The notes beneath the pieces were generated by a model that was not told the DNA's origin, searched no databases, and worked only from the letters and a program-made list of their open reading frames with translations. Below, in pieces: positions 30,231-44,524 of a DNA stretch of 49,344 nucleotides. Both the position numbers and the translations under genes were made by a program. Every line of letters starts with the position of its first letter. Position 1 is the first letter of the stretch. The stretch comes from Candidatus Omnitrophota bacterium (GTDB taxonomy: Bacteria; Omnitrophota; Gorgyraeia; Duberdicusellales; 4484-171): positions 1 to 49,344 of the forward strand of contig JAGLSE010000003.1 of NCBI GenBank assembly GCA_023135905.1. Reading direction: 5' to 3'.

Positions 30231-31547
30231 ATGATAAATAGTTGTAAGAAAAAAATAGTTATATTAGGTGGGGGGCTTTCAGGAATAAGCTTGGGTTATT
30301 TTTTAAATAAATTAGGCATAGAAAGTGTAATATATGAGAAGGAACCAACTATCGGAGGATTATGCCGTTCAAAAATAAAAAATGGATTTATTTTTGATAT
30401 TTGCGGACATTTATTGCATTTTAAACATAAAACATCTCTCCCTCTTATTAAAGATTTATTAAAAGATAATTTAGTTTATCATAAAAGAAGTTCTTGGATT
30501 TATTCTTTTAATAAATTTACAAAGTACCCTTTTCAGGCGAATCTTTATGGACTTCCTAATTCCGTTATAAAAAATAGTATTGTTGATTTTATTAAGGCTA
30601 AAATTGATACCGAAAAGAATAGTTTGTCTAATAATTTTTTAGAGTGGAGTTATGTGAATTTTGGTAAGTCTATAACAGATTATTTCATGGCTCCATATAA
30701 TCGGAAGTTTTGGACAGTCCCCCTAGAAGATCTTTCTTATAAATGGATTGACGGAATTGTTGTTACACCAACACTTAAACAGATTGTAGATGGAACAATT
30801 GAAGAGAATAACCGCAATGTTGGGTATAATTCTTTTTTTTGGTATCCAAAGGAGGGAGGAATAGATAATTTGATTAAGGCTTTTAGTCAGCCGTTAAAAA
30901 GTATTTTTACCGGTTATGATGTTGAAGGAATTGATCATATAAAAAAAAAGATAACTTTCAAAAATGGAAAGAAATGTAAGTATGATATTTTAATATCGAC
31001 TATACCTTTGCCGGAATTACCGAATATTATTAAAAATGTTCCTTTAAAAATTAATAAAGTTTTTAAAAAACTACAATGGGTATCTATATTTAATCTAAAT
31101 TTAGGGCTGACTGAAAATCATAGGCCTAAAAAACATTGGATATATTTTCCGGAAAATAATTTAAAATTTTTTAGAGTAGGATTTTTCAACAATTTTTCTA
31201 ATTACAATACGCCTATAGGCAGTAGTTCTATATATAGTGAAGTATCATATTCAAATGGCAGATGTATAGATAACAAAAAGATTGTGTCTGAAATATTTAA
31301 AGGTTTAAAAACTGTAGGTATTTTAAATGGAAAGAGTCAAGAGTTGGCAAGAGTTATCAATGATATAAAATATGCTTATCCTATATATAATCATGATTAT
31401 AAAGATTCCCTTGATATTATTAAAAAATATTTAAGTGACTGTAACCTTAATTCGATTGGTAGATTTGGCGGTTGGAAGTATATGTCGATGGAAGATGTAA
31501 TTTTAGAAAGTGAAAGGTTGAGTTCTTTTCTATTAAAAAATGTTTAA
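30231..31547 (+). CDS. FAD-dependent oxidoreductase, UDP-galactopyranose mutase/HemY-like
   Basis: GGGLSG, GGLCRS, FDICGHLLH, PYNRKFW, GYNSFFWYPKEGG, GRFGGWKYMSMED. Confidence 0.85.
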   Translation: MINSCKKKIVILGGGLSGISLGYFLNKLGIESVIYEKEPTIGGLCRSKIKNGFIFDICGHLLHFKHKTSLPLIKDLLKDNLVYHKRSSWIYSFNKFTKYPFQANLYGLPNSVIKNSIVDFIKAKIDTEKNSLSNNFLEWSYVNFGKSITDYFMAPYNRKFWTVPLEDLSYKWIDGIVVTPTLKQIVDGTIEENNRNVGYNSFFWYPKEGGIDNLIKAFSQPLKSIFTGYDVEGIDHIKKKITFKNGKKCKYDILISTIPLPELPNIIKNVPLKINKVFKKLQWVSIFNLNLGLTENHRPKKHWIYFPENNLKFFRVGFFNNFSNYNTPIGSSSIYSEVSYSNGRCIDNKKIVSEIFKGLKTVGILNGKSQELARVINDIKYAYPIYNHDYKDSLDIIKKYLSDCNLNSIGRFGGWKYMSMEDVILESERLSSFLLKNV

Positions 31548-32319
31548 AGATAGGATTAAAAAAATATATTTATATAGACATGTTTTAATCAGTATGTCTA
31601 TCTCCCAGTTTAAGGCTAAATATGCGGGGTCTAAACTTGGAATATGGTGGGCTGTAATTATTCCTTTGTTATTAGCAGGGAGTATCAATCTTGTATTTAC
31701 ACGGGCTTTCAATGTAAATGTTAAGCATTATACTCTTTTTGTTTTGTCTGGGATTATCCCTTGGCTATTTTTTTCTAATGCCTTGATGGAAGCGGTTAAT
31801 TCATTTACTGGTAATGCTTCATTGATAAAACAAAGTATATTTCCTCGCGAATTTATACCTATAGCTTCTATTGCCGGCAATCTTTTAAATTTTTTAGTAG
31901 GTTTTATTTTTTTGCTGCCACTTTTTATAATTGTTAATTATAAAGTTTTATTTATGGCGGGATTTTTAATAATACTTATTATATGTTATTTTTTATTTAT
32001 TGTTGGTATAGGATTTTTATTTTCAACTATAAATGTTTTTTTTAGAGATCTTGGTCATTTCCTTTCGGTTGGGTTTATGGTTTGGTTTTGGATTACACCC
32101 ATTTTCTATTCTTTAGATATGTTATCATTCCCGATTCGCTGGATTTGTTTAATCAATCCGATGAGTCTTTATGTAATAGCTTATAGAAAACTTTTGTTTG
32201 ATGCCAGTGGCCTTTCATTATTTATGATAGGGGGGTTGATTTTAGTTTCGTTGGGATCTTTATTTATTGGATATATGATTTTTATTAGGAATGAAAATAA
32301 TTTATTAAAACAAATATGA
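31540..32319 (+). CDS. wzm: ABC-2 polysaccharide export permease
   Basis: FKAKYAGSKLGIWW, GIIPWLFF, LIKQSIFPRE, FFRDLGH, TPIFY, INPM; about six transmembrane helices. Confidence 0.92.
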   Translation: MFKDRIKKIYLYRHVLISMSISQFKAKYAGSKLGIWWAVIIPLLLAGSINLVFTRAFNVNVKHYTLFVLSGIIPWLFFSNALMEAVNSFTGNASLIKQSIFPREFIPIASIAGNLLNFLVGFIFLLPLFIIVNYKVLFMAGFLIILIICYFLFIVGIGFLFSTINVFFRDLGHFLSVGFMVWFWITPIFYSLDMLSFPIRWICLINPMSLYVIAYRKLLFDASGLSLFMIGGLILVSLGSLFIGYMIFIRNENNLLKQI

Positions 32320-35300
32320 ATATAATAGAGTTTAATAATGTTTGGGAAATGTACCGTATTAAATTTATTAGGAATAAAAAAGTATTCTGGGAAGAATTTT
32401 GGGCTTTAGAAGATATAAGTTTTAAGATTTGTAAAGGGGAGACTTTAGGTATAGTTGGTGAGAATGGAGCAGGTAAGACCACTTTGTTGAAATTAATTGC
32501 TGGTATGCTTGTGGCAGATAGAGGGGAAGTTAATGTTAAGGGTAAAGTCTCATGTTTAATGGAATTAGGGGCTGGATTTAATCCGGAATTTACCGGAAGA
32601 GAAAATATAATTCTTAACTCGAGAGTATATGGTTTAGAGGAAAATGAAATAGAACAGAAACTTGAAAGTATTATTGAATTTGCGGATATAGGTAAATTTA
32701 TCGATGCTCCGGTACGATGTTATTCTCAAGGTATGTATATGAGATTAGCGTTTGCTTTAGCGATATTTGTAGAACCGGACATACTTTTAATTGATGATAT
32801 TTTGGCTGTAGGTGATGAAGAGGCCCAGCAAAAGTGTGTAAAAAAAATATTTGAATTAAGAGAATTGGGTAAAACTATAATTTTGGTTAGCCATGATACA
32901 AATATGGTAGAAAAATTATGTGATCGAGCATTAATTTTGGAGAAAGGTAAAATTAGATATACCGGGTTACCTAAAGAAGTTGTCCCAAGATATCTTGAAA
33001 CAGTGGGAGACAAGATAGGGATTTCAACTTTAGATGGTGACAAGCTGAGAGTAGTTAACAATAATGGTCAAATAAACATTAATTACGATAATAGTACTAT
33101 TACTAAAGGTCCAGGAGGATGTGTTTCTGCATTTAGACAGACACTTAATAATAGAATGTCTTCTTTGAATTTGAGGTGGAAAGTCTTAAGTACTTCTTTA
33201 AATGAAATTATTGCTGAGGGCTATTATATGGATGGAACTGTTTCTCAGCGATGGATATTGAAGGTATATGAAAATGAATTAGAATGGCAGATAGAAAATA
33301 AAGATGCGCAAATAAAGGAATTATCTGTAGATGTCTCTTTAATAACCGGGTATGAAAGATGGATTACTTCAAATAATGAAGGTGATTTTGGCTTTTTTTC
33401 ACATAAAGTGGATTGGGAAGAAGTTGCTACTTTAAGTTATTACAATAATGTTGTGGGGTTGAAACATAATTTTAAAAAAAAGATATTACCTTTTATAGGA
33501 ATAGAGACTAACAGGGGTAAAAACAGATATTTAAGACTTTTTAATACAGGTTATAACCAGGCTGAAAGAGTGATTAAATTGTCTAGTATAGGCGATGATG
33601 TAATTTCTGTAAGATTTAAATTTTTTTCATGTCAGGAAACATTTGATAAGTATATAAATGTGGCAGTAGAGAAGTTCTTGCAGGATGAAAAAAAAGAAAA
33701 GCAAAGGCATTTGCAGGAGATAGCTAAAGAAAAAGCTAGTTTGATTGAGTCTAGAACTATTTATTCAGAGGATTTAAGTGTTTTTGCCGATGAGGATAAT
33801 AAGCAAATAAAAATTTATTATAAAAATATGGAAGTTACAAAATCGTCAGGTTTGAAATGTGATTTTAAGTGTAATAACATTACATATAATATTTATGATA
33901 GTAATTGGAGTATAGAACAGAAGGGTAAAACTATACTGATACTTCATCTTAATTGGGAACAAATAAAGTTAGGTCAGAAGTGGATAATATCTATCAAAGA
34001 TAATGGGATTTGTTGTCAGGTATGGTTGGATAATGAACGGTCGTTTAACTTTGAATTTTTCAGAGCGGGATTTTTATTTACTGCTGAATATAAGACTTTT
34101 TTTTGCGGCTGTCAAGAAACAGCTTTTCCTGTAGAATTTGATGTTTTGGAAGATATGTTTTTAGAGAACAATAATTCGGATTTTTTTGGTTTAAGAAAAC
34201 AATCTTTATTTCCGGCAGTAGTTCTGGAAAGTGAAGACGAGTTTTCTTGTTTTATTCAGAATAATGATGTAGATAATTCTTGCCGTATTTTTCAATTAAA
34301 TATCCCTGGAATAATTTTTAAAAAAGGAAGTAAAACTTTTTCAGTTAATATTAAGTTCCTTGAAGATGAAAAAATGATTGAGAATTATATCAGAGAAGAA
34401 AAGCAAAGGTATTTGCAGGAGATAGCTAAAAAAAAAGCTAGTTTGATTGAGTCTAGAACTATTTCTTCAGGGGATTTACGTGTTTTTGTTGATATTGAAA
34501 ATAAGAAAATAAAAATTTATTATAAAGATGAGGAAATTACAGCCGGGGATGGGATATATTCCATTTTTTATACGTCTGAAAAAGGTTATAATTTTAACCA
34601 TTGTAAATGGGATATGAATAAAATTTCCAATAATAAGATTGTTTTAAATTTGTATTATGAGTCTATTTCTCTCTTACATGTTTGGGAATTGATGTGTGAA
34701 GAAGGGAACTCTTTAAAAATTAAAGTTGAAGTTGAAGTAAAGGAACCTATAAATTTTGTTAATCAAGATGTAAAAATAGAACTGAATGACATATTCAAAA
34801 GTTGGGCAACTGCCTATGAACGAGGTAATTTTGATGTGAATGATTATATTAATGATTTAGGACCTATTAAATTAAAAGATAATAAAATTTCGAAAATAGT
34901 ATTGGAATCCCAAGATAAAACAGATGGTATTAAATTGTTTTTTGGTATTTTTTTGAATTTAGAAAAGAAAATTATAGATGTATATAAAAGAAGAGGTAAA
35001 AATAAAGATTATACTTGTATTAATTCTTCGTTAATATTTCCTTATAATGATAGCTTATTTAAGCCGGGTAAATATTTCTATTTTGATGGAAATATAGTTT
35101 TAGGTAATGAGTTTGTATTAGAAGAAAATATAAAATCAAGCGGGTTTGCTGAAATGGCAAATAAAGATTTTAAATTTATTTTTGAGCGGGGTAGAGGAAA
35201 GATATTTTGGAAAGGGGAAGAATTGACTACTGGTTTGGGTGTTTATAGTTCAATACGTTCTAATGGCGTATGGTTTGATTCTTATCATGCAATTTGGCGA

Positions 35301-35786
35301 GTTGAGCAGAAAGAGGAGAATAAAATAATATTAATTGGAGATTGGGCTCATATTCCTGTTTCTCAAATATGGAAATTAGAATTAATTGATGAAAATATAA
35401 TTTCTTTGGATATAGATATGAGGATTTATGGTTCAATAAAACTTGAATTAGAACAAACTAATATTATGCTTGTATCCCAGTATAAAAAATGGGTTGCATC
35501 AAACTTAGCCCAAGGAGCATTCCTTGATGATTACACTAAGGATTATGATATTTTACCTTTTAGGTTTTGGTACGGTAAGGCTAAGGATATTGGAGCATAT
35601 GGGGCAACGTTACCAAAAATAATTTTTAAAAGTAATATGGGGCAAGATACCAGGGGCATTGTGGAGAATACAGATACCTTATATGAGGCAAGATTACTTC
35701 AATACCAGAGAATAAACTCTCATGATGTAATTAAGGATAATCGTCAGTATTTTAAGGGAATTATAGAAATTTGTAATAATGAATAA
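32316..35786 (+). CDS. wzt: Wzt-type polysaccharide ABC ATPase with a ~920-aa repeated C-terminal extension
   Basis: FWALEDISF, Walker A GENGAGKTT, GAGFNPEFTGREN, YSQGM, Walker B LLIDD, VSHD; followed by four related ~235-aa units. Confidence 0.9.
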   Translation: MNIIEFNNVWEMYRIKFIRNKKVFWEEFWALEDISFKICKGETLGIVGENGAGKTTLLKLIAGMLVADRGEVNVKGKVSCLMELGAGFNPEFTGRENIILNSRVYGLEENEIEQKLESIIEFADIGKFIDAPVRCYSQGMYMRLAFALAIFVEPDILLIDDILAVGDEEAQQKCVKKIFELRELGKTIILVSHDTNMVEKLCDRALILEKGKIRYTGLPKEVVPRYLETVGDKIGISTLDGDKLRVVNNNGQININYDNSTITKGPGGCVSAFRQTLNNRMSSLNLRWKVLSTSLNEIIAEGYYMDGTVSQRWILKVYENELEWQIENKDAQIKELSVDVSLITGYERWITSNNEGDFGFFSHKVDWEEVATLSYYNNVVGLKHNFKKKILPFIGIETNRGKNRYLRLFNTGYNQAERVIKLSSIGDDVISVRFKFFSCQETFDKYINVAVEKFLQDEKKEKQRHLQEIAKEKASLIESRTIYSEDLSVFADEDNKQIKIYYKNMEVTKSSGLKCDFKCNNITYNIYDSNWSIEQKGKTILILHLNWEQIKLGQKWIISIKDNGICCQVWLDNERSFNFEFFRAGFLFTAEYKTFFCGCQETAFPVEFDVLEDMFLENNNSDFFGLRKQSLFPAVVLESEDEFSCFIQNNDVDNSCRIFQLNIPGIIFKKGSKTFSVNIKFLEDEKMIENYIREEKQRYLQEIAKKKASLIESRTISSGDLRVFVDIENKKIKIYYKDEEITAGDGIYSIFYTSEKGYNFNHCKWDMNKISNNKIVLNLYYESISLLHVWELMCEEGNSLKIKVEVEVKEPINFVNQDVKIELNDIFKSWATAYERGNFDVNDYINDLGPIKLKDNKISKIVLESQDKTDGIKLFFGIFLNLEKKIIDVYKRRGKNKDYTCINSSLIFPYNDSLFKPGKYFYFDGNIVLGNEFVLEENIKSSGFAEMANKDFKFIFERGRGKIFWKGEELTTGLGVYSSIRSNGVWFDSYHAIWRVEQKEENKIILIGDWAHIPVSQIWKLELIDENIISLDIDMRIYGSIKLELEQTNIMLVSQYKKWVASNLAQGAFLDDYTKDYDILPFRFWYGKAKDIGAYGATLPKIIFKSNMGQDTRGIVENTDTLYEARLLQYQRINSHDVIKDNRQYFKGIIEICNNE
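33696..34541 (+). repeat. Intragenic direct repeat, 33696-~33839 and 34398-~34541 (702 nt apart)
   Basis: The first 81 nt match at 77/81 by manual alignment (EKQR[H/Y]LQEIAK[E/K]KASLIESRTI[Y/S]S[E/G]DL); similarity decays afterwards. Confidence 0.9.
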
Positions 35787-36636
35787 CTATAAAAAATTCA
35801 CTAAACATTTAAAGACAAATAATTTATTTTATGCAATTTGGCGAGGGATAAAATATTTTATATTTGTGATTAAATGGAAAGGAAAATATTTTGAATCTTT
35901 ATCTGAAAACATGATTGTCAAAGGTAATATAAAAATGTATTGTTCAAATGGGGGAATAAATATTTTTTGGAAGGATAAAAAAATAACTAGTGACCCGGGA
36001 CTGAATGTAGCAGTTAATACCTTAGGTCTATGGACTGATTCCTCTAAAGCCGAATGGCAGATATTAAAGCGTGACGATGATTTTTTAAATGTTAAAATTG
36101 TTTTCAAAGAATTGCCGATGGAGCAAATTTGGTTCTTAAAGATAAATAGTGACAATGAAATTGATTGGAGAGTTCAGGCTAATGTCGAGGAGTGGACACA
36201 TATAGATGAGTTCCGTGTGTTAACTATGGTTAATTCATATTACAAAATTTGGCTTAGTGATTATGATTACGCTGATTTTCCGCGGTTAGATGATTATTGG
36301 TATGATATATATCTTAATAATAAACCGGTTTCCTTAGTGGGCGTGCGATTTTCCAAAGGAGATAACTTTTTACCGCCATTGGTTATAGGGAGTCAGGAGG
36401 AGAATTTGTTGCCTCTTATACAAAATCCTCCCTTAATTAACAATGCCCATATTGTGGGAGTTAGAATTAATAAGCTTAATGATACAAATAATTTTGAGCC
36501 CGGTAATTATGAGGTTTTTAGTGGTAAAATAGTTTTGTTTGAAGAGGAGAGTCAGTTAGATAAAAAGATTGAGAATATTCGTCAGGGGTATTTAAAAACT
36601 GTTACAAGTAAAAGTAAGTTAGGAGAGGTGTCATGA
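35779..36636 (+). CDS. Hypothetical protein: stand-alone copy of the Wzt C-terminal repeat domain
   Basis: GINIFWKDKKITSDPGL..W.DS..AEW..LPMEQIW.LKI parallels Wzt unit 4 GKIFWKGEELTTGLGV..WFDS..AIW..IPVSQIWKLEL. Confidence 0.75.
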   Translation: MNNYKKFTKHLKTNNLFYAIWRGIKYFIFVIKWKGKYFESLSENMIVKGNIKMYCSNGGINIFWKDKKITSDPGLNVAVNTLGLWTDSSKAEWQILKRDDDFLNVKIVFKELPMEQIWFLKINSDNEIDWRVQANVEEWTHIDEFRVLTMVNSYYKIWLSDYDYADFPRLDDYWYDIYLNNKPVSLVGVRFSKGDNFLPPLVIGSQEENLLPLIQNPPLINNAHIVGVRINKLNDTNNFEPGNYEVFSGKIVLFEEESQLDKKIENIRQGYLKTVTSKSKLGEVS

Positions 36637-38132
36637 AAATCAAAGTATTACTATTAAATTTGCCTTGGCAAAGAAATAGTAGTTGGGGTGTTCGTGCAGG
36701 GTCGCGTTGGCCGCATATAAGAGATATTAATGAGGGGGAATATCTGCCTTTCCCATTTTTTTTAGCTTATGCGGCTTCTTTATTACAAAAAAATAATATA
36801 AATTCCTTCATTATTGATGCTATTGCGGATAAGGTTGAAGAAAATAAACTTTTTGAAAAAATAAAATCAATTAATCCTGAGCATATAATTATAGAAACTT
36901 CAGTACCCTCATTTCATAATGATTTAAGAATTACAAAGATAATCTCAGAAATGGGATTTTCGATAATACTGTGTGGCCCGAATTTTGAAATTTATAAACC
37001 TGAATTTTTAAAAAAACACGAATTTATTAATTATGTTTTGTATGGAGAATATGAATGTTCTTTGTTGGAATTGTTGAATTTTCTTGAAAAAGGTAAAAAT
37101 TTGTCGAATGTTAAAGGTTTGATTTATAGAGATAGGGAAAGTGTAGTTAAGAATTTAAAGAGAGAGCCTTTTGATATAAATATTCTTCCTTGGCCGCATA
37201 GAGAGACCTTACCTATGAATAAATATTTAGATGCTCCGGGGGAGATGTTGACCCCATGCGCTCAAATAATAGCTTCTCGGGGATGTCCTTTTAAATGTCA
37301 ATTTTGTCTTTGGCCTCAAGTTGTTTATCAAGGTAATCATTATAGGGCTCGCGAGATTAAAGATGTTGTGGATGAGATGGAGTATTTAGTAAAAGAAAAA
37401 GGTTTTAAATCTGTATATTTTGATGATGATACCTTTAATATTGGTAAAAAAAGAATGTTAGATTTTTGTGGGGAGATTAAAAATAGAGGTTTGAATAAGA
37501 TTCAGTGGGCTATAATGGCTCGGCCTGATTTGATGGATGAGGAGATATTAACAGCTATGAAAGAATCCGGTCTTTGGGCAATAAAGTATGGTGTGGAATC
37601 TTCAGATCAGGGTTTAGTTGATAATATTGAAAAAGGCATGAATTTACAAAAAGCAAAGAAGATGATACAATTTACCAAAATGCTGGGTATAAAAACTCAT
37701 CTAACTTTTACTTTTGGAATACCCGGAGAAACAAAGCAAACAATTCAGAAGACTATTGATTTTGTACGGAAAATCGATCCATTTTCTGTTCAATTTTCTA
37801 TTATGACTCCTTTTCCCGGAACCAAATCATACGATATTTTTGATGAAAAAGGGTTGTTTGTTATAAAAGATTTTTCCGCTTATGATGGTCATTTTAAAAG
37901 TGTAATTAGTACGGTAAATTTGACGGCAACAGATTTAGAAAACGCTAAGATCAAAGCCGGTAGAATTTGGTTGGACCACTTAAGAAAACGAAGAGGTTTC
38001 TTTGGTAATTTAAGAAGATTCCAGGAGTATATGTCTATGTATAGTTTGAGTTCTGCCTTTCGGAAGACATTAAGCTATTTGAAATATGTAGTTATAGAAA
38101 GAAAAAAGTATGTTGACACGGAGGATATATAA
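36633..38132 (+). CDS. Cobalamin-domain radical SAM protein (HpnJ-like N-terminus)
   Basis: GVRAGSRWPH, PFFLAYAA, SRGCPFKCQFCLWPQ, FDDDTF, YGVES, TPFPGT. Confidence 0.9.
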   Translation: MKIKVLLLNLPWQRNSSWGVRAGSRWPHIRDINEGEYLPFPFFLAYAASLLQKNNINSFIIDAIADKVEENKLFEKIKSINPEHIIIETSVPSFHNDLRITKIISEMGFSIILCGPNFEIYKPEFLKKHEFINYVLYGEYECSLLELLNFLEKGKNLSNVKGLIYRDRESVVKNLKREPFDINILPWPHRETLPMNKYLDAPGEMLTPCAQIIASRGCPFKCQFCLWPQVVYQGNHYRAREIKDVVDEMEYLVKEKGFKSVYFDDDTFNIGKKRMLDFCGEIKNRGLNKIQWAIMARPDLMDEEILTAMKESGLWAIKYGVESSDQGLVDNIEKGMNLQKAKKMIQFTKMLGIKTHLTFTFGIPGETKQTIQKTIDFVRKIDPFSVQFSIMTPFPGTKSYDIFDEKGLFVIKDFSAYDGHFKSVISTVNLTATDLENAKIKAGRIWLDHLRKRRGFFGNLRRFQEYMSMYSLSSAFRKTLSYLKYVVIERKKYVDTEDI

Positions 38133-38157: not shown

Positions 38158-39612
38158 ATGAAGATTATCAAGAAAGTTTTAGACATAATAAAAAAAAGAA
38201 AAATTTTTAAAAATAAAGAGGTGACGGATATCATACTTATCCAATGTCCTCCTTGGGATGTTTCTATACCTCCGTTAGGGATAGCTTATCTGTCGGATTA
38301 TTTAAAAAAGCATGATTATTATGTTTATCCTTTTGATTTAAATATTGAATTATATCATTCTGCTAAAGCGGCAGACAAATATTTATGGGAGCAAAAAAGT
38401 TATGACCATTGGGTTAAAGATGAGTTATATGAAAAAACATGGCATAGTCTTAGAAAGATTTCCGGGAAGATTTTAGAGCAAGCCTTTAAGAAATATAATA
38501 CAGAATATGTGGGGTTATCTGTTAATTTTGCAAGCATAAAAATTGCTGGTGAAATAATTAAAGTAATAAAGAGTTTAAATCCCAGGACCAAAATAATTTT
38601 GGGTGGATGGGGATGTGTTAATGGGCATATGAGAAGTTTATTCCCTAAAGAATTAGTTGATGTTTTTGTTATAGGTGAAGGAGAAGAGACATTGTTGGAG
38701 GTTCTGGATAAGTTGAAGGGTAAAATAGATAAAACTAGGATCCCGGGAGCTATTTTTAATAAATTAGGACAGGATACTTATGAGTCCAGAGAATCGATAA
38801 TAGACCTAGACAGTATTCCTTGGCCTAAATATAGTGAATTTAATTTGAATCTTTATATTAAAAAAGCAATGCCTTTATTCGCCAGTAGAGGGTGTATCGG
38901 TCATTGTACTTTTTGTAATGATTGGCCCCTTTCAAAACCCTATCGGTTTCGCAGCGCGCATAATATTTTTGAAGAAATTCAATATCATGTAAAAACTTAT
39001 CATATAAATTATTTTAGTTTTAAAGATTTGTTATGCAATGGAAACATAGAGGAACTAAATTTATTGTGTGATTTGATTATTGATTCAGGTTTACAGATTC
39101 ATTGGGATTCTCAAGCTATTACCCGCAAAGAAATGACTAGGGAGTTGTTGCGTAAACTTAAAAGGTCAGGATGTGGAACGTTGATATATGGGGTTGAGAA
39201 TTTTTCTAATAATGTTTTAAGAAGAATGAAGAAAATGTTTACTAAAGAGATTGCGGAAAAGGTATTAAAAAATACCTATGAAATAGGGATTAATGCTTGT
39301 ATTAATATTATAGTAGGTTTTCCAGGGGAGACTGAGATGGATTTTGAAGAAAATCTTGAATCCATAAAAAGGAATTACAAATATATTACACAGATTGGAG
39401 CGGTTAGTGTATGTTTAGTAAATAACGATAGTGATTTGGAAATTAACTCCAAGGAATATGGTTTGGTTTTGCCTGATGATTCACGGACGCGTGCTAAAAA
39501 ATGGTATACTTCTGATGGCCAAAATACTTATGAAATAAGAAAAATGAGGGCAGATAAAATGCTTAAATTGATTAAAGATTTAAAGTTGTCTTATGCGACA
39601 ATAACGGTATGA
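38158..39612 (+). CDS. Cobalamin-domain radical SAM protein
   Basis: QCPPW..PPLGIAYL, DLNIELY, GEGE, SRGCIGHCTFC, GVEN, IVGFPGET. Confidence 0.9.
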   Translation: MKIIKKVLDIIKKRKIFKNKEVTDIILIQCPPWDVSIPPLGIAYLSDYLKKHDYYVYPFDLNIELYHSAKAADKYLWEQKSYDHWVKDELYEKTWHSLRKISGKILEQAFKKYNTEYVGLSVNFASIKIAGEIIKVIKSLNPRTKIILGGWGCVNGHMRSLFPKELVDVFVIGEGEETLLEVLDKLKGKIDKTRIPGAIFNKLGQDTYESRESIIDLDSIPWPKYSEFNLNLYIKKAMPLFASRGCIGHCTFCNDWPLSKPYRFRSAHNIFEEIQYHVKTYHINYFSFKDLLCNGNIEELNLLCDLIIDSGLQIHWDSQAITRKEMTRELLRKLKRSGCGTLIYGVENFSNNVLRRMKKMFTKEIAEKVLKNTYEIGINACINIIVGFPGETEMDFEENLESIKRNYKYITQIGAVSVCLVNNDSDLEINSKEYGLVLPDDSRTRAKKWYTSDGQNTYEIRKMRADKMLKLIKDLKLSYATITV

Positions 39613-40802
39613 ATTTAGAAATTAAAGATCTTGTTTTGAAGGGCCTTTTAGACGGCGCAAAGGCTTTTGTCGGACCGGAAACTGTTCAGTTTGATATAAC
39701 CAACAGATGCAATAATAATTGTTTATGCTGCTGGAGAAATTCTCCCCTTTTAGGTGAATCCAGCGAAGAGGATAAAAGGGAAAAAGAATTTGAGCTTCCT
39801 TTTTCGGTAATAAAGAAAACAATAGATGAGCTTAAGATAATGGGAACAAAAAAAATATTTTTTGCCGGAGGAGGGGATCCCTTTGTTCATCCGAAAATTA
39901 TGAAAATATTGAGATACGCTAAAAAATGCAAAATGAAGATTTATATCAATACCAATTTTACATTAGTTGATAAAAAAAGAGCGAGAGAGTTAGTAAAACT
40001 TAAAGTAGATCATATACATGTGAGTGTTTTAGCCGGAAATTCAAAGACCTATTCTTTAGTTCATCCGAATAAGTCAGAGGAAATGTTTTGTAAAATAAAA
40101 AAAGTTTTAAAATACATCGCAGTCTTAAAAAAAAATAGGAGACAGCATCTTTATAATCCGTTACCCCATATTAACCTTTATTATGTTATTTTTAATAAGA
40201 ATTATAAAGATATTAATGAAATGGTTGATTTAGCCATATATGTAAAAAGCGATACTATGGAATTTACACCGATAGATGTTGTTGCTGGTAAGACCGATTC
40301 TTTACTGTTAGACGCCGAACAAATAAATTCGGTCACTAATGATGTGAAAAACAATATTGGACGGTTGAGAAAGTGCAATAAATCTCAGTCAGTTAAGATT
40401 AATATTGAACAGTCTGAAAATTTTTTAAAAAGGATCAACTCTTCTTTGGCTTTAGAAGGTAAATATGAATCAAAAACTGTGATTAATCAACCCTGTTATG
40501 TGGGTTGGGCTTTTGCCAGGATAACGGCTGATGGAGAAGTGAATCCTTGTTTAAAAGCACACCGGATATCAATAGGTAATATTTATAAAAACTCATTTGA
40601 GGAAATATGGAATAGTCCGGAAGAACAGGAGTTTAGAAGAAAATCATTTAATTTAAATTTAAATGATATATATTTAAAAGATATCGGGAATGACCCAAAT
40701 TTAACCTTTGGCTGTTTACAAAGTTGCGACAATCTTCAAATAAGCTTAGATATGAATAAAAAGTATATAGATATATTGAGAGGATATGGGAAAGTTAAAT
40801 AA
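39609..40802 (+). CDS. Radical SAM protein with twitch/SPASM-like C-terminus (triplet member 1)
   Basis: GPETVQFDITNRCNNNCLCCW, GGGDPF, CYVGW..GEVNPCLKAHR, CLQSCDN. Confidence 0.9.
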   Translation: MNLEIKDLVLKGLLDGAKAFVGPETVQFDITNRCNNNCLCCWRNSPLLGESSEEDKREKEFELPFSVIKKTIDELKIMGTKKIFFAGGGDPFVHPKIMKILRYAKKCKMKIYINTNFTLVDKKRARELVKLKVDHIHVSVLAGNSKTYSLVHPNKSEEMFCKIKKVLKYIAVLKKNRRQHLYNPLPHINLYYVIFNKNYKDINEMVDLAIYVKSDTMEFTPIDVVAGKTDSLLLDAEQINSVTNDVKNNIGRLRKCNKSQSVKINIEQSENFLKRINSSLALEGKYESKTVINQPCYVGWAFARITADGEVNPCLKAHRISIGNIYKNSFEEIWNSPEEQEFRRKSFNLNLNDIYLKDIGNDPNLTFGCLQSCDNLQISLDMNKKYIDILRGYGKVK

Positions 40803-42036
40803 AATAATTAAAGATAAAAACCAGTTGTTACTGATGATGGGGGTTTTACATTCATCCAAGGCTTTTGTTTCCCCGGAAGTTTTGCATTTAGATTTAACAA
40901 ATATGTGTAATTTTGATTGTATTGCTTGTTGGTGCAGATCTCCTTTGTTAAGGGATAAAGCTATGCCGGCTTGGGAAAGGAAATTGACTCTTCCTTTACC
41001 CTTATTAAAAAGTGTTTTTGATGATTTGTTTGAAATGGGAGGATTAAAACAGGTGAAATTGGTTGGAGGTGGAGAACCTTTTATGCACCCTGACATATTG
41101 GAGATTGTGGAATATATTAAAAACAATGATAAAAAAGTTCAGATAGATATAAATACTAATTTTAGTCTTGTTGATGAACTGATAGCTGAGAGATTAATAG
41201 CGTTAGGGGTTGATTCCTTAACGGTAAGTGTTTGGGCGGGAACTCCTGAGGTTTATTCCTCAGTTCATCCGAATCAAACTGAGGCGACTTTTGATAGAAT
41301 AAAGGAGGTTTTAATATTTCTTCATCAACTAAAAAAGAAACTTCAAGTCAACCATCCCAGGATAACAATACATAATGTTATTTTAAAATTAAACTATAGA
41401 GATATCTCCGAGATGATACAATTCGCGTTAGATACAGGTACTCATGATATACAATTTGTTCCTGTCGACCCTGTTAAAAGTAAAACAGAAGCTTTATTAT
41501 TGAGTGATAATGAAAAAGGAGAACTGCTTGATTTATTATATGAGATTAGAAAACGTTACGATTCAACATCTTTTCAATATACCGCGGAAGATAAGAGAAG
41601 AGTTGTTCTCAGTGATTTTGATGGATTTATAAGTCGAACTGAAAGATTAAATACCAAGAGTGGAGCCTATGATGAAGATATTATTGAGGAAATACCTTGT
41701 TATGTCGGCTGGCTATTCGCGAGAATAATGACTACAGGTAATGTAGTCCCCTGCTGTAAGGGGCACAGAATGCCTATGGGCAATATAAATAAAAATAGGT
41801 TTAAAGATATTTGGAATTCAGATACTTATAATAATTTTAGACACAAAGGCATTAATTATCCTAAAAGTCATGGTTATTTTTCCAGGATGGGGAATAAGGC
41901 AGTCTCAAAGACAGGTTGCTATAATTGCGATAATCTTTGGCAAAATATTCCTATGCAGAATAAAATTAATTTGTTAAGAAAGGAACATCCTAAGCTATTT
42001 AAGCTTAGTAAATTTTTTCTTAAAAAAATTATTTGA
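40786..42036 (+). CDS. Radical SAM protein with twitch/SPASM-like C-terminus (triplet member 2)
   Basis: DLTNMCNFDCIACW, GGGEPF, CYVGW..GNVVPCCKGHR, CYNCDN. Confidence 0.9.
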   Translation: MGKLNKIIKDKNQLLLMMGVLHSSKAFVSPEVLHLDLTNMCNFDCIACWCRSPLLRDKAMPAWERKLTLPLPLLKSVFDDLFEMGGLKQVKLVGGGEPFMHPDILEIVEYIKNNDKKVQIDINTNFSLVDELIAERLIALGVDSLTVSVWAGTPEVYSSVHPNQTEATFDRIKEVLIFLHQLKKKLQVNHPRITIHNVILKLNYRDISEMIQFALDTGTHDIQFVPVDPVKSKTEALLLSDNEKGELLDLLYEIRKRYDSTSFQYTAEDKRRVVLSDFDGFISRTERLNTKSGAYDEDIIEEIPCYVGWLFARIMTTGNVVPCCKGHRMPMGNINKNRFKDIWNSDTYNNFRHKGINYPKSHGYFSRMGNKAVSKTGCYNCDNLWQNIPMQNKINLLRKEHPKLFKLSKFFLKKII

Positions 42037-42039
42037 TAT

Positions 42040-43194
42040 ATGATTTTTAAAGTTATTAGAAAAGCATTCTTAAAGGAGAATAAAAGAAGATATTTAAATT
42101 TAAAGGGCATTGTTTCAAAACATTATGCCTATAAAGGTCCGGATGTAGTTCAAATAGATTTGACTGATAAATGCAATAGTCATTGTCTTGTATGTTGGGA
42201 ACACTCCCTTATTAAAGAAAAAGAGAGAGAGACCGATTTTTGCAGTCTTGATTTTTACAAGGTTAAAGATTTTATAAGAGATATTGCTAAACTAGGGGCT
42301 AGGGAAGTAATCTTTTCTGGAGGGGGGGAACCTTTTTGTTACCCTAATATTTGGAAAGTATTAGAATGGACCCAGCTACAGGGGTTAAATTTTCATATAA
42401 ACACGAATTTTACTTTATTAGGGAAAGAAGAGATCCGTGAACTTTTGAGTTTCAATAAATTATCTTCTTTGACAATTAGCCTTTGGGGTGGAACATTTGA
42501 ATTGTATTCAAAACTTCATGGCAGAGAAGAAGACGTATTTTATAAGCTTAGAGATAATATTAAATTTTTGAATCAGGTTAAACCTCGAAGTCTTTATGTA
42601 AAGACAGTGGCTATCGTTAATAAAATCAATTATTTGAATTTGCAAGATTTATTAGATTTTATCGCAGAAATCGGATGTATTAATATAGAATTTGGAGTCT
42701 GTGATGTCATCCCCGGTGAAACCGATTCATTTTTATTGAATAAATATCAACTTAGTTTATTGAGGGCGAATTTTATTGGATTAGTTAAAAATATAAAAAA
42801 AAAGAGGTATAAGATTAAAATAGTTAATAAAGAAAGATTTTTGAAAAGAATTTCAAATCCAAGTGCTTGCTATGGCGAATATGATAGTTATGTCAAAGGA
42901 ACACTTTGTTATTCCGGCTGGCTTTTTTTAAGATTAAGGGCTAATGGGGATTTCAATTCATGTCTAAAGTCTCACCGTATTCCAATAGGGAATTTATACA
43001 ACGAGGGCATTTTTTCAGTATGGAATAATTTATTGCAGCAAAAATTTCGAAGGGAATCTTTGTGTATCCCTAAGAATGAGGAGTATTTTAAGTTTATAGG
43101 TAATGGTAATGGTGATAATGTTGGCTGTAAACGCATATGTGATAATATTTCTGTAAATGAATATGTTGATAAGGTTGCAAGATACTTTTTATGA
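42040..43194 (+). CDS. Radical SAM protein with twitch/SPASM-like C-terminus (triplet member 3)
   Basis: GPDVVQIDLTDKCNSHCLVCW, SGGGEPF, CYSGW..GDFNSCLKSHR, CKRICDN. Confidence 0.9.
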   Translation: MIFKVIRKAFLKENKRRYLNLKGIVSKHYAYKGPDVVQIDLTDKCNSHCLVCWEHSLIKEKERETDFCSLDFYKVKDFIRDIAKLGAREVIFSGGGEPFCYPNIWKVLEWTQLQGLNFHINTNFTLLGKEEIRELLSFNKLSSLTISLWGGTFELYSKLHGREEDVFYKLRDNIKFLNQVKPRSLYVKTVAIVNKINYLNLQDLLDFIAEIGCINIEFGVCDVIPGETDSFLLNKYQLSLLRANFIGLVKNIKKKRYKIKIVNKERFLKRISNPSACYGEYDSYVKGTLCYSGWLFLRLRANGDFNSCLKSHRIPIGNLYNEGIFSVWNNLLQQKFRRESLCIPKNEEYFKFIGNGNGDNVGCKRICDNISVNEYVDKVARYFL

Positions 43195-43348: not shown

Positions 43349-44524
43349 ATGAATATATTGATGATACATCCTCACGATATTTATTCTCAATCTGAGCCGT
43401 GGACTATACGTATAAAAAGAATTGCCGCTGAGTTTATAAAAAAAGGGCATTCGGTTAAATTAGTTTATTTCCCTGAGGATAAAAAAAACGCATACAAAAG
43501 AGATGTGGAGAATAATATCGAAATATTTTCTATGAATAGAATTGTTAGTAGTTTTGTGTTTTTTCGTAATATTATAAATATAGTTAAGTTGGCTCAGGAA
43601 TGCGATATTATTCATTTTCAAAAGTGTCATTACACTGCGTCTCTCCCGGCATTAATTGCGGCATTTATTTGTGATAAACCTATTCACTATGATTGGGATG
43701 ATTGGGAGACAAAAATATTTTATTATTCAAATCCTCATCAGAAATTTGTTGGAGAATTTATTAATATGTTTGAAAAATTAATCCCTCAAGTAGTGGATAC
43801 AGTGTCTGTGTCAAGTAGTTATATCAATGATCTTTGTGTGAAAAGGGGAGTAAACCCCGAAAATATTTTTTTCGCGCCAGTGGGGGCAGATGTAAGAAAA
43901 AGTGAAAATAACAGTCATAATAATGAAAAGATTAGGGAGAAATATGGTGTTTTTAATAAACTTGTGTTGTACGTAGGCCAGCTTCATGGAGGCCAATATG
44001 CCGAGTTATTCGTTAAAGCCGCGCATATAGTTGTTGAGAGCGGATTTGACGCGACCTTTATGATATTAGGTGACGGCTATAGGCTTAGTGAGTTAAAACG
44101 GTTAGCTGTAAAGCTTAATATTGAAAGCCGTTGTATTTTTCCCGGGGCGGTTAAGCATAAGATTGTATCGGAATATATTTTAGCAGCGGATGTATGTGCC
44201 GCTTGTTTTGAGGACAATGAGATAACCCGATGTAAGAGCCCTCTAAAGATTGTGGAGTATTTAGCTTGCGGTAAGCCCATTGTTGCCAGCAATGTCGGAG
44301 AGGTTAGAAATATGGTGGGGGGGGTTGGAGTTCTTGTAGAACCGGGCAGTTCAAAATTATTGGCGCATGGTATAATGAATTTGTTGAAAAATGATACATT
44401 AAGGGAAAATTTAAGCGAATGGGGCAAAGAAAGGATTTCTCGAAAATATAATTGGGAAGCGACAGCTAATAGTATATTTAAAGCTTATGAACGAGGTCTT
44501 AAAAAAAATAAAGTTAAATTATAA
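43349..44524 (+). CDS. GT4 (GT-B) glycosyltransferase
   Basis: LYVGQL, ILGDG, KSPLKIVEYLACGKPIVASNVGE, YNWE. Confidence 0.92.
   Translation: MNILMIHPHDIYSQSEPWTIRIKRIAAEFIKKGHSVKLVYFPEDKKNAYKRDVENNIEIFSMNRIVSSFVFFRNIINIVKLAQECDIIHFQKCHYTASLPALIAAFICDKPIHYDWDDWETKIFYYSNPHQKFVGEFINMFEKLIPQVVDTVSVSSSYINDLCVKRGVNPENIFFAPVGADVRKSENNSHNNEKIREKYGVFNKLVLYVGQLHGGQYAELFVKAAHIVVESGFDATFMILGDGYRLSELKRLAVKLNIESRCIFPGAVKHKIVSEYILAADVCAACFEDNEITRCKSPLKIVEYLACGKPIVASNVGEVRNMVGGVGVLVEPGSSKLLAHGIMNLLKNDTLRENLSEWGKERISRKYNWEATANSIFKAYERGLKKNKVKL

What the first reader, a model, noticed from the sequence alone, without database searches (positions are those of the whole stretch)
32316..36636. Giant Wzt with four tandem copies of an unrecognised ~235-aa domain, plus a fifth free-standing copy
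Wzt proteins are normally ~250 aa, or ~400-450 aa with one carbohydrate-binding module that reads the glycan's terminal cap. Here the units start near 33024, 33753, 34455 and 35148, and again near 35908 in the next gene. Each follows L.v......I.I[YF][YW]....[IVL]T...G, then W.[VI], then (Q).W.[LI], and later [IV][QE]N. They are beta-rich with conserved Trp and are joined in part by charged helical linkers. Inference: a multi-module reader or quality-control platform that recognises several rSAM-installed modifications, or a scaffold docking the enzymes onto the exporter.
Basis: partly seen in the sequence, partly recalled or inferred. Interest (0 to 1): 0.82.

Follow-up and report, generated by a model that had tools for sequence, protein, structure and literature searches.

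The report
Glycan exporter ATPase with four supersandwich modules
The motor subunit of a sugar-polymer export pump in an uncultured Omnitrophota bacterium carries four copies of an unnamed sugar-enzyme-type domain, and a fifth copy belongs to the next radical-SAM enzyme, which suggests that one shared module ties glycan tailoring to export.

Summary
ORF 32316-35786 (1156 aa) is a Wzt/TagH-type ABC ATPase followed by four homologous ~230-aa all-beta units. ORF 35779-36636 holds a fifth. A profile built without the Wzt units finds exactly four domains (i-E 1e-7 to 9e-18; shuffles at most 8 bits).

No Pfam or NCBIfam model matches the units. The predicted fold is a galactose-mutarotase-like beta-supersandwich (Z 19.0 to 12.8 against solved glycoside-hydrolase accessory domains, mutarotases, YidC P1). 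It is not the Wzt_C jelly-roll.

The ORF is not a chimera: a 99.9% identical 1156-aa copy lies on another contig.

The architecture recurs. Among 160 relatives, 76 are NBD plus 2-6 units, 24 are unit-radical-SAM fusions and 8 are GT-C glycosyltransferase-unit fusions. The module occurs in 57 of 301 Omnitrophota genomes sampled.

The "free-standing" copy is the split-off N-domain of the next, HpnJ-like B12 radical-SAM enzyme, fused in 27 of 30 related loci.

Units fall into old positional classes: first, middle, last and rSAM-type. Middle units are degenerate.

Best reading (inferred, 0.55): a non-catalytic glycan-binding module shared by exporter, tailoring enzymes and GT-C transferases. I found no published description. 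At least eight earlier reports of this scan describe the same module.

The parts
31540..32319 (+). Wzm-like ABC-2 permease. It overlaps the Wzt start by 4 nt.
   Evidence: Pfam ABC2_membrane 1.3e-14. NCBIfam galactan Wzm/RfbD 6.2e-11, KpsM 1.4e-3.
32316..32987 (+). Wzt/TagH-type nucleotide-binding domain (aa 1-224). Walker A is GENGAGKTT, signature YSQGM, Walker B ILLIDD (Asp where the catalytic Glu usually sits), H-loop SHD.
   Evidence: ABC_tran 2.7e-22. Best NCBIfam models are TagH (201 and 175 bits) and galactan Wzt (165 bits), all below the equivalog cut-offs. Motifs printed.
33021..33752 (+). Unit 1 ('first' class): beta-supersandwich aa 236-437 plus a 40-residue helical linker aa 440-479.
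   Evidence: Groups with first units of other proteins in the unit tree.
33756..34454 (+). Unit 2 ('middle' class): beta-domain aa 481-682 plus a helical linker aa 686-713.
   Evidence: 70.2 bits, i-E 9e-18. Sister to middle units of P0021, P0062 and P0023.
34458..35102 (+). Unit 3 ('middle' class): beta-domain aa 715-929, followed by a 14-residue coil.
   Evidence: Sister to unit 3 of P0029.
35145..35786 (+). Unit 4 ('last' class, the most conserved class): beta-domain aa 944-1153, up to the stop codon.
   Evidence: Sister to the last units of P0029 and P0022. Conservation of the last class.
33694..33839 (+). 146-nt direct repeat, copy 1 (linker plus the start of unit 2). Copy 2 is at 34396-34541, 89% identical, 702 nt apart. 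This looks like local homogenisation between units 2 and 3.
35779..36636 (+). Fifth unit as a separate 285-aa gene. It has an N-terminal conserved helix aa 2-37 (no 19-residue window reaches a Kyte-Doolittle mean of 1.0, so not a classical TM helix), a beta-supersandwich aa 45-253 and a C-terminal helix aa 257-282. It overlaps Wzt by 8 nt and the next gene by 4 nt.
   Evidence: Collinear with aa 5-279 of the fused homologue P0040.
36633..38132 (+). HpnJ-like B12-type radical SAM enzyme (499 aa). In most relatives it carries the fifth unit as its N-terminal domain.
   Evidence: Radical_SAM 3e-20. NCBIfam HpnJ TIGR03471 2.9e-72, 244 bits, below the 577.6 cut-off. 58% identical to aa 293-787 of P0040. 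Fused in 27 of 30 loci.
38158..43194 (+). Conserved downstream radical-SAM block: one B12-rSAM (38158-39612) and three SPASM-rSAMs (39609-40802, 40786-42036, 42040-43194).
   Evidence: The same block, often fused into 1300-1470-aa proteins, follows in related loci.
30231..31547 (+). FAD/NAD-binding amine-oxidase-type oxidoreductase, conserved directly upstream of wzm.
   Evidence: PRK07208 family 1.3e-52; weak match to UDP-galactopyranose mutase 1.5e-12. Synteny.
43349..44524 (+). GT4 glycosyltransferase closing the conserved block.
   Evidence: Synteny.

Best explanation
The gene encodes the ATPase of a Wzm/Wzt-type (ABC-2) exporter for a lipid-linked surface glycan of an Omnitrophota bacterium. 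The usual ~150-aa jelly-roll cap reader (Wzt_C) is replaced by a cytoplasmic arm of four ~215-aa galactose-mutarotase-like beta-supersandwich modules, partly spaced by long helices.

The same module heads the next enzyme, an HpnJ-like B12 radical SAM. In relatives it also heads other radical SAM enzymes and follows GT-C glycosyltransferases.

The most likely role is a non-catalytic carbohydrate-binding or recruitment module. It holds the same polymer at the tailoring enzymes and then at the exporter, so that tailoring and export are coupled.

Within the arm the modules are not equivalent. There is an NBD-proximal 'first' type, expandable and degenerate 'middle' types that probably act as spacers or low-specificity sites, and a highly conserved distal 'last' type that is the best candidate for the actual reader.

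Shown here: the repeats, the fold class, the fusions, the synteny and the positional classes. Inferred: that the ligand is a glycan, that the modules bind it, and that binding gates export.
For: NBD and permease are of the polysaccharide-export type:
- TagH/Wzt and Wzm models are the best hits.

Fold of the unit:
- AF2 model, pLDDT 82.4, pTM 0.76.
- It matches solved supersandwich domains that handle sugars. 9awt_A GH36-type galactosaminidase N-domain: Z 19.0, rmsd 3.2 A over 212 residues. Aldose-1-epimerases: Z 14-17. GH2/GH38/GH94/GH15 accessory domains, PL4, OpgG/D and YidC P1: Z 13-16.
- Foldseek E 3e-6 and 55 hits at E<=1e-3. The Atlas structure search agrees.

No catalytic signature:
- In 297 aligned units the columns conserved at 60% or more are T, G, W, S, A, W, Q, W, W, Y, W, G, F, G, P, N, R/H and F.
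- No conserved Asp, Glu or His pair is present.

Three kinds of partner, all acting on one polymer pathway:
- 76 of 160 family proteins are NBD-U2..6.
- 24 are U-rSAM fusions. Pfam confirms B12-rSAM and SPASM-rSAM in 9 of the 10 proteins checked.
- 8 are PMT_2 (GT-C)-U2..4 fusions.

Conserved locus:
- GT4, FAD oxidoreductase, Wzm, NBD-Un, U-rSAM, further rSAMs and GT4 recur in 30 Omnitrophota loci.

The partner rSAM:
- Its best family model is HpnJ. HpnJ is proposed to contract the ring of a lipid-linked glucosamine (PMC9204698, passages read).

The window:
- It is full of glycan genes: GT2 x2, GT4, PMT_2 x2, DegT, GNAT.

The genome:
- It has LpxC and two Wzy_C/WaaL-type genes.
- It has no squalene-hopene cyclase match and no Wzt_C (genome 92.5% complete).

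Positional classes:
- 30 Fitch changes of class on the unit tree, against a mean of 162 (minimum 149) in 500 shuffles.
- 83 of 92 cherries join units of the same class. Only 9 join units of one protein.
- Last and rSAM-type units keep W85, S88, Q116, W118, N216 and R/H224 at 0.79-0.99 (R/H224: Arg 0.97 in last units; the commonest residue in rSAM-type units is His, 0.43). Middle units keep W85, S88, N216 and R224 at only about 0.5.
Against: - No ligand binding has been measured or modelled.
- The supersandwich fold also serves as a protein-protein or oligomerisation domain and as a catalytic scaffold, so fold alone shows no function.
- I could not obtain model coordinates. Whether the conserved Trp/Ser/Gln/Asn/Arg positions form one surface site is untested, and several are probably core residues.
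- SPASM-type rSAMs mostly act on peptides or cofactors, so the substrate need not be a glycan.
- The side of the membrane on which the GT-C-fused units sit was not determined. The crude hydropathy count gives 10-13 segments.
- One relative, P0025, fuses NBD-U5 directly to a SPASM rSAM. That fits physical tethering as well as shared ligand binding.
- The Walker-B Glu is Asp here and in 49 of 76 relatives (9 have Glu; 18 were not matched by my pattern), so the ATPase cycle may differ from that of model Wzt proteins.
Confidence: 0.55

Rival explanations
1. Docking scaffold or metabolon. The modules bind each other, or bind the enzymes, rather than the glycan. The Wzt arm would be a rack on which module-bearing radical SAM enzymes are parked at the exporter, so that tailoring happens at the export site.
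For: The same module sits on the exporter and on several different rSAM classes. P0025 is a direct NBD-U5-SPASM-rSAM fusion. Successive rSAMs are fused into 1300-1470-aa proteins in many loci, which suggests an assembly. Supersandwich domains contribute to oligomer interfaces in some glycoside hydrolases (recalled, not tested here). The genes are translationally coupled, with 4- and 8-nt overlaps.
Against: rSAM-type units form their own clade, apart from all Wzt units (37 of 58 in a 100% pure split with support 1.0). That neither requires nor excludes pairing. The 8 GT-C fusions would place the module, by what is known of GT-C topology (recalled), in the periplasm, where it cannot dock on Wzt. 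Unit number does not track the number of module-bearing enzymes in the loci.
Confidence: 0.22
2. Length gauge. The arm of proximal, spacer and distal modules with helical linkers sets a distance from the membrane. Only chains long enough, or capped, to reach the distal reader are exported, and the variable number of middle units tunes chain length.
For: The number of units varies mainly through the middle class. The same-protein cherries are mostly middle units, e.g. u2/u3 of P0026 and P0020, and there are 2-6 units per protein. Middle units are degenerate and the distal unit is the most conserved. Rigid-looking 40- and 28-residue helices lie between units, and pTM of 0.45 with high pLDDT indicates an extended, non-compact chain. 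A coiled-coil ruler is known for WbdD in the E. coli O9a pathway (recalled).
Against: Pure inference. There are no data on chain length, no chain terminator was identified in the window, and flexible linkers would make a poor ruler.
Confidence: 0.1
3. The modules are enzymes (mutarotase, epimerase, phosphorylase or lyase-like) that themselves modify the polymer.
For: The fold is shared with aldose-1-epimerases (Z 14-17) and polysaccharide lyases.
Against: No conserved acidic or histidine pair occurs in 297 units. The only semi-conserved charged position is R/H224. No sequence match to Aldose_epim or any other Pfam family at E<=5. Four tandem copies with degenerate middle units is not typical of enzymes.
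Confidence: 0.05
4. The substrate is not a glycan. The system would export a radical-SAM-modified lipid or peptide, and the module would bind that.
For: SPASM rSAMs are typical peptide or cofactor maturases, and B12-rSAM relatives include lipid enzymes: HpnJ, ladderane rSAM and weak Tes hits. ABC-2 exporters also move lipids and peptides (recalled).
Against: The NBD and permease are closest to TagH/Wzt/Wzm models. GT2, GT4, GT-C, DegT and GNAT genes surround the exporter. GT-C fusions of the module exist. No squalene-hopene cyclase was found in the 92.5% complete genome. I did not screen systematically for a precursor-peptide gene.
Confidence: 0.08

Closest known systems
Wzt with a C-terminal carbohydrate-binding domain (E. 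coli O9a, Raoultella terrigena/Klebsiella O12, Aquifex aeolicus WzmWzt)
   Same: An ABC-2 exporter ATPase with a cytoplasmic all-beta accessory domain fused after the NBD, next to a Wzm permease, in a glycan locus. In the model systems the domain reads the polymer's cap and licenses export (PMC9445017, passages read).
   Different: Here there is no Wzt_C sequence match. The module has ~215 residues and a supersandwich fold, against a ~150-residue jelly-roll. There are four copies instead of one. Helical spacers are present. The module is shared with radical SAM and GT-C enzymes. The catalytic Glu after Walker B is Asp.
TagH of the teichoic-acid exporter TagGH
   Same: Best-scoring NCBIfam models for the NBD: 201 and 175 bits.
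   Different: The scores are far below the equivalog cut-offs (538 and 320 bits). The organism has LpxC, so it is diderm. The TagH C-terminal region is unrelated (recalled).
N-terminal or accessory galactose-mutarotase-like supersandwich domains of glycoside hydrolases and phosphorylases (GH36 FpGalNase 9awt; GH2, GH38, GH94, GH15), aldose-1-epimerases, OpgG/OpgD and the YidC P1 domain
   Same: Same fold class over about 190-230 residues, Z 12.8-19.0 and Foldseek E down to 3e-6.
   Different: Sequence identity is 5-12%. No Pfam membership. No conserved catalytic residues. The context is cytoplasmic, on an ABC ATPase and on rSAM enzymes, rather than on a hydrolase.
HpnJ, the B12-type radical SAM of hopanoid side-chain biosynthesis
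   Same: Best family model for the rSAM that owns the fifth unit (2.9e-72). HpnJ is proposed to rearrange a lipid-linked amino sugar (PMC9204698).
   Different: 244 bits against a cut-off of 577.6, so not an equivalog. No squalene-hopene cyclase was found in the genome. HpnJ has no supersandwich N-domain (recalled).
RiPP recognition elements (RRE) shared among peptide-tailoring enzymes
   Same: Same logic only: one small recognition domain recurs on several tailoring enzymes, including rSAM/SPASM enzymes, of one pathway.
   Different: An unrelated fold (winged helix, recalled) and a peptide ligand. RREs are not found on the exporter ATPase.

Membership tests
Wzt/TagH-type ABC-2 exporter ATPase | ABC NBD with Walker A, ABC signature, Walker B and H-loop | tested here: met
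   ABC_tran 2.7e-22. Motifs GENGAGKTT, YSQGM, ILLIDD and SHD printed.
Wzt/TagH-type ABC-2 exporter ATPase | Catalytic glutamate directly after the Walker-B aspartate | tested here: not met
   The window has Asp-Asp, invariant D160/D161 in 13 NBD-U4 proteins. Of 76 relatives, 49 have Asp, 9 have Glu and 18 were not matched by my pattern.
Wzt/TagH-type ABC-2 exporter ATPase | Adjacent ABC-2 (Wzm/TagG-type) permease gene | tested here: met
   31540-32319, ABC2_membrane 1.3e-14, overlapping by 4 nt.
Wzt/TagH-type ABC-2 exporter ATPase | Score above a curated equivalog cut-off (TagH, galactan Wzt) | tested here: not met
   201, 175 and 165 bits against cut-offs of 538, 320 and 400. These are the best-matching family models but not equivalogs.
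Wzt_C carbohydrate-binding domain (PF14524) | Sequence match to the Wzt_C model | tested here: not met
   No hit at E<=0.01 in the whole protein, none at E<=5 in the units, and none in the genome.
Wzt_C carbohydrate-binding domain (PF14524) | Jelly-roll fold forming a strand-swapped dimer | tested here: inconclusive
   The listed matches of the two fold searches (about 40 rows of Foldseek; the 50 rows shown of VIA) are supersandwich proteins, and no Wzt CBD chain is among them. Absence from a list does not exclude it. Dimerisation was not tested.
Wzt_C carbohydrate-binding domain (PF14524) | Binds the terminal cap of the polymer and is needed for export | not testable with these tools
   Needs binding and export assays.
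Galactose-mutarotase-like beta-supersandwich fold | Fold match over most of the domain to several solved members | tested here: met
   123 chains at Z>=8. The top is Z 19.0, 212 residues, rmsd 3.2 A, and the matches span model residues 40-270. Foldseek probability 1.00 and 55 hits at E<=1e-3.
Aldose-1-epimerase (enzyme family) | Conserved catalytic His/Glu residues (identity of the residues recalled) and a Pfam Aldose_epim match | tested here: not met
   No conserved His, Glu or Asp column in 297 units. No Pfam match.
Carbohydrate-binding module in the CAZy sense | Demonstrated carbohydrate binding by the isolated module | not testable with these tools
   Only fold and context support it.
HpnJ (TIGR03471), for the partner rSAM | Score above the equivalog cut-off, and a hopanoid pathway in the genome | tested here: not met
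   244 bits against 577.6. No SQHop_cyclase_C match in the 92.5% complete genome.

The most novel reading that the evidence does not exclude
Omnitrophota run a radical-SAM 'assembly line' on a lipid-linked surface glycan that follows RiPP-like logic. One dedicated recognition domain, a new supersandwich carbohydrate-binding family, recruits the polymer to each tailoring enzyme (B12-rSAM, SPASM-rSAM, GT-C). The same domain, arrayed as proximal, spacer and distal modules on the exporter ATPase, then checks the product and licenses its export. This would be the first substrate-recognition module shared between glycan-tailoring radical enzymes and their exporter. It would also point to carbon-skeleton chemistry (C-methylation, ring contraction, cross-links) on a cell-surface polysaccharide.
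Probability: 0.35. Interest if true: 0.85.

Novelty: new variant of a known kind. Interest (0 to 1): 0.68.

Why it matters
Cap-reading Wzt proteins are the textbook case of how an ABC exporter checks that a polysaccharide is finished. Here a different, larger and multiplied module takes that place. The same module sits on the radical SAM and GT-C enzymes of the pathway.

If it binds the polymer, it gives a handle on three things:
- a new carbohydrate-binding family;
- how export is coupled to tailoring;
- an undescribed, heavily radical-SAM-modified surface glycan.

The window holds 17 rSAM genes in 49 kb, in a phylum of uncultured, very small bacteria whose surface chemistry is unknown.

The module is also a practical marker. 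A profile of it finds these loci in 57 of 301 Omnitrophota genomes sampled.

Tried and rejected
- Complex prediction. I submitted Wzt aa 471-1156 with the 285-aa protein aa 38-285. The verdict was 'no answer' (score 0.00, mark 0.32, controls not run). It counts neither for nor against docking.
- PDB sequence search with the unit profile. Only chance-level hits came back (Get1 fragments, E about 0.06).
- NCBIfam on the 285-aa protein: nothing. Pfam at E<=5 on all 19 alignment members: only seven unrelated single-member hits.
- The search for related loci with the broad alignment A1. It failed for lack of a conserved stretch. I repeated it with the narrower A2, so the 30 loci are anchored on the rSAM-type unit and are biased towards loci that have one.
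- Literature. 'Omnitrophota' + 'radical SAM' gave 12 papers (11 listed). I read passages of two preprints on giant proteins and neither mentions Wzt or this module. 'Wzt' + 'carbohydrate-binding' + 'tandem' + 'ABC transporter' gave 7 papers, none on multi-module Wzt. 'radical SAM' + 'Wzt' + 'Wzm' gave 2 Xanthomonas papers, judged unrelated from the listing. 'radical SAM', 'O-antigen', 'ABC transporter', 'galactose mutarotase' (3 of 4 terms) gave 25 papers, 12 listed, none relevant by title or abstract. Supplements were closed and subscription journals are not covered.
- Assembly chimera: rejected.
- Recent tandem duplication as the origin of the four units: rejected. Only 9 of 92 cherries join units of one protein. 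A 146-nt stretch does show local homogenisation between units 2 and 3.
- Classical TM anchor in the 285-aa protein: not supported by hydropathy.
- Mapping the conserved residues on the model: not possible, because no coordinates are handed out.
- Other: 457-aa and 470-aa members of the Wzt's 90% cluster on long contigs start at the unit-2/3 linker. I could not tell whether these are gene-call artefacts, breaks or contig effects.

Full report
**What is there**

The window (49,344 nt, about 29% GC, all long ORFs but one on the + strand) comes from a 1.66-Mb, 92.5%-complete genome. Its relatives are Candidatus Omnitrophota MAGs (record titles; some are labelled Planctomycetia).

ORF 32316-35786 encodes 1156 aa and ORF 35779-36636 encodes 285 aa. 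Pfam sees only an ABC_tran domain at aa 31-161 of the long protein and nothing in the short one. NCBIfam ranks TagH (201 and 175 bits) and galactan Wzt (165 bits) first for the ATPase. All are below their equivalog cut-offs. The upstream gene 31540-32319 is an ABC-2 permease closest to Wzm/RfbD. The three genes overlap by 4 and 8 nt, and the short ORF overlaps the next gene by 4 nt.

**The repeats are real**

- The 285-aa protein hits the long protein four times by BLASTP: aa 225-456, 495-706, 698-932 and 951-1076, with E from 9e-9 to 4e-14.
- All ten unit pairs match at E<=1e-3.
- A profile made only from the free-standing family, so free of circularity, finds exactly four domains: aa 241-465, 471-707, 711-940 and 945-1077.
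- Their independent E-values run from 1e-7 to 9e-18 for a nominal million-sequence database. Of 200 shuffles of the tail, the best reached 8.0 bits.
- The full-length AlphaFold2 model (13-row alignment, mean pLDDT 83.2, pTM 0.45) places the beta-domains at aa 236-437, 481-682, 715-929 and 944-1153.
- A 40-residue helix follows unit 1, a 28-residue helix follows unit 2, and a short coil follows unit 3.
- The ORF is reproduced at 99.9% identity over all 1156 residues on a different 129-kb contig.
- The longest internal DNA repeat is 146 nt at 89% identity, so a chimera is excluded.

**What the unit is**

No Pfam, NCBIfam or PDB sequence match exists.

The AlphaFold2 model of the 285-aa protein (19-row alignment, pLDDT 82.4, pTM 0.76) has three parts: an N-terminal helix (aa 2-37), an 18-strand beta-domain (aa 45-253) and a C-terminal helix (aa 257-282).

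- An exhaustive structural comparison gives 123 chains at Z>=8.
- The top hit is the N-domain of a GH36-type galactosaminidase (9awt_A, Z 19.0, 212 residues, 3.2 A).
- Next come aldose-1-epimerases (Z 14-17), the accessory domains of GH2, GH38, GH94 and GH15 enzymes, PL4 lyases, OpgG/D and the YidC P1 domain.
- Foldseek agrees, and so does the Atlas structure search. Its best hit there is a 910-aa Omnitrophota ABC_tran cluster.

The unit is therefore a galactose-mutarotase-like beta-supersandwich. It is not the ~150-residue jelly-roll of Wzt_C described for model Wzt proteins (PMC9445017, passages read). No Wzt_C match exists in the genome.

In 297 aligned units the conserved columns are aromatic and polar: T70, G74, W85, S88, W93, Q116, W118, Y155, W158, F167, P199, N216 and R/H224 in the numbering of the 285-aa protein. 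No conserved acid/base pair is present. That argues against an enzyme.

**How common it is, and with what it travels**

A profile search of 1.84 billion representatives finds 611 clusters at E<=1e-3 and 267 at E<=1e-30. Only the best 150 were visible.

I classified 160 proteins: those 150, minus overlaps, plus the word-index hits.

| Architecture | Proteins |
|---|---|
| NBD plus 2-6 units (U2 14, U3 37, U4 13 besides the window, U5 10 plus 1 with an rSAM, U6 1) | 76 |
| Units fused to radical SAM domains | 24 |
| Units only, many probably fragments | the remainder |

- Pfam confirms B12-rSAM or SPASM-rSAM in 9 of the 10 fusions checked; the tenth (P0045) matched no family.
- One protein is NBD-U5-SPASM-rSAM.
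- Eight proteins carry 2-4 units behind a PMT_2-type GT-C glycosyltransferase.
- In the phylum, 57 of 301 sampled genomes have the module, and 49 of 248 high-quality ones.
- In the window's own genome only the five copies described here exist.

**The fifth copy**

In 30 related loci the order is conserved: GT4, FAD oxidoreductase, Wzm, NBD-Un, unit(-rSAM), further rSAMs, GT4.

- The anchor unit is fused to the following rSAM in 27 loci.
- It is separate, as in the window, in 2 loci (L006, L008).
- It is cut by the contig end in 1 locus.
- The 790-aa homologue P0040 is collinear with the window's two genes. Its aa 5-279 match the 285-aa protein at 48% identity, and its aa 293-787 match the next gene at 58%.

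So the 'free-standing' copy is a lineage-specific split of the N-domain of that enzyme. The enzyme's best family model is HpnJ (2.9e-72, 244 bits, below the cut-off). HpnJ is a B12-type rSAM proposed to contract the ring of a lipid-linked glucosamine (PMC9204698, passages read).

The conserved N-terminal helix of the unit gene is not hydrophobic enough for a classical TM segment.

**The units are not equivalent**

I built a tree of 297 units: 239 from NBD proteins, 33 from rSAM fusions and 25 stand-alone. GT-C-fused units and units covering fewer than 150 profile positions were left out. The units group by position, not by protein.

| Class | In one split at least 90% pure | Support |
|---|---|---|
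| First units | 59 of 73 | 0.906 |
| Last units | 58 of 74 | 0.657 |
| Middle units | 69 of 92 | 0.713 |
| rSAM-type plus stand-alone units | 37 of 58 (100% pure clade) | 1.0 |

- Class labels change 30 times on the tree, against a mean of 162 (minimum 149) in 500 shuffles.
- Of 92 cherries, 83 join units of the same class and only 9 join units of one protein.
- The window's units 1-4 sit with first, middle, middle and last units of other proteins.
- Last and rSAM-type units keep the polar/aromatic positions at 0.79-0.99 (position 224: Arg 0.97 in last units; in rSAM-type units the commonest residue is His, 0.43). Middle units keep W85, S88, N216 and R224 at only about 0.5.

The array is therefore old and differentiated. 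It grows mainly by adding middle units.

**Context**

The window holds 17 radical SAM genes. Ten of them match both the B12-binding and the Radical_SAM models. Four carry SPASM domains.

It also holds two GT2, one GT4, two PMT_2 GT-C enzymes, a DegT aminotransferase, GNATs, a methyltransferase and two U32-family proteins.

The genome has LpxC and two Wzy_C/WaaL-type genes. It has no squalene-hopene cyclase match and only this one TagH/Wzt-like ATPase. An ABC-transporter-dependent, LPS-linked or similar surface glycan is the simplest product, but this is inference.

**Mechanism**

The best-supported reading (confidence 0.55) is that the module is a non-catalytic glycan-binding or recruitment domain. 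It would be shared by the three kinds of machine that handle one polymer: the tailoring rSAMs, the GT-C transferases and the exporter. The exporter arm would consist of a proximal unit, spacer-like middle units and a distal reader.

Shown here:
- the homology of the units;
- the fold class;
- the lack of catalytic conservation;
- the fusions, the synteny and the positional classes.

Inferred:
- the nature of the ligand;
- binding itself;
- the licensing of export.

Rivals:
- a docking scaffold that parks module-bearing enzymes on the exporter (0.22);
- a length gauge (0.10);
- a non-glycan substrate (0.08);
- an enzymatic role (0.05).

A complex prediction between the Wzt arm and the 285-aa protein returned no verdict and is not used either way.

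Unit number does not follow rSAM content in the loci, and the middle units are the least conserved.

**Novelty**

I found no paper that describes a multi-module Wzt, this domain, or its link to radical SAM enzymes. The coverage is open-access literature only, and supplements were closed.

Earlier AI reports of this same scan describe the same module in at least eight other Omnitrophota genomes and reach the same reading. They are not independent evidence, but they show the feature recurs.

- the circularity-free repeat test;
- the positional orthology of the units;
- the degeneracy of the middle units;
- the split state of the fifth copy in this lineage;
- the GT-C and NBD-U5-rSAM fusions, checked here;
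- the HpnJ-likeness of the partner enzyme.

I rate it a new variant of a known kind: an ABC-2 glycan exporter with an accessory reader domain. The system-level reading is bolder and untested.

Noticed in passing
window 1191-49289: Seventeen radical SAM genes lie in 49 kb. Ten match both B12-binding and Radical_SAM (5033, 10338, 11880, 22357, 23881, 25354, 26915, 38158, 47886, plus the B12-type 36633 by NCBIfam). Four carry SPASM (2535, 39609, 40786, 42040). Three are plain (1191, 19412, 28932). They are interleaved with GT2, GT4, GT-C, DegT, GNAT and methyltransferase genes. This is an unusually dense radical-SAM glycan locus.
   Followed up: partly
window 32781-32798 (Wzt aa 156-161): Walker B reads ILLIDD: Asp replaces the catalytic Glu. 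D160/D161 are invariant in 13 NBD-U4 proteins. Of 76 relatives, 49 have Asp, 9 have Glu and 18 were not matched by my pattern. This suggests an altered or slow ATPase cycle in both sites of the homodimer.
   Followed up: partly
window 44542-44814 and 45138-45494: Two small paralogous ORFs (90 aa, and 118 aa with a signal-peptide-like start) lie in the 1.5-kb gap between the GT4 and a PMT_2 gene. They share a ...DP.CTFYK.D...K.I.I......I.ITY....GIKIA.N.IV.P motif. I did not search them further.
   Followed up: no
window 6565-7752 and 20468-21550: Two Peptidase_U32-family genes sit among the radical SAM genes. Members of this family act as O2-independent hydroxylases in other pathways (recalled), which would fit anaerobic tailoring chemistry.
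   Followed up: no
window 33694-33839 and 34396-34541: A 146-nt direct repeat at 89% identity, 702 nt apart, covers the helical linker and the first strands of units 2 and 3. This is local homogenisation (gene conversion) inside otherwise old, diverged units. Some other assemblies' gene calls for this protein start exactly here (457- and 470-aa cluster members).
   Followed up: partly
relatives P0037, P0100, P0127, P0132, P0138, P0141, P0147, P0161: PMT_2-type GT-C glycosyltransferases carry 2-4 copies of the same module at the C-terminus. By GT-C topology this would probably put the module in the periplasm. The topology was not determined.
   Followed up: partly
relative P0025 (1856 aa); G162:C60 (open frame of 4452 aa): P0025 is a direct fusion of NBD, five units and a SPASM radical SAM. 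Another Omnitrophota genome has several copies of the module inside a 4452-aa open frame.
   Followed up: partly
window 21563-22354 and 3687-5048: A 263-aa ORF without any Pfam or NCBIfam match, and a 453-aa ORF with only a weak AMP-binding match (1e-4, below the cut-off), are embedded in the rSAM cluster.
   Followed up: no
loci L011, L013-L015, L021, L022, L024, L025, L027, L030, L034: The radical SAM genes that are separate in the window (38158-43194) appear as single 1056-1473-aa multi-rSAM proteins in many relatives. That suggests these enzymes work as one assembly.
   Followed up: no
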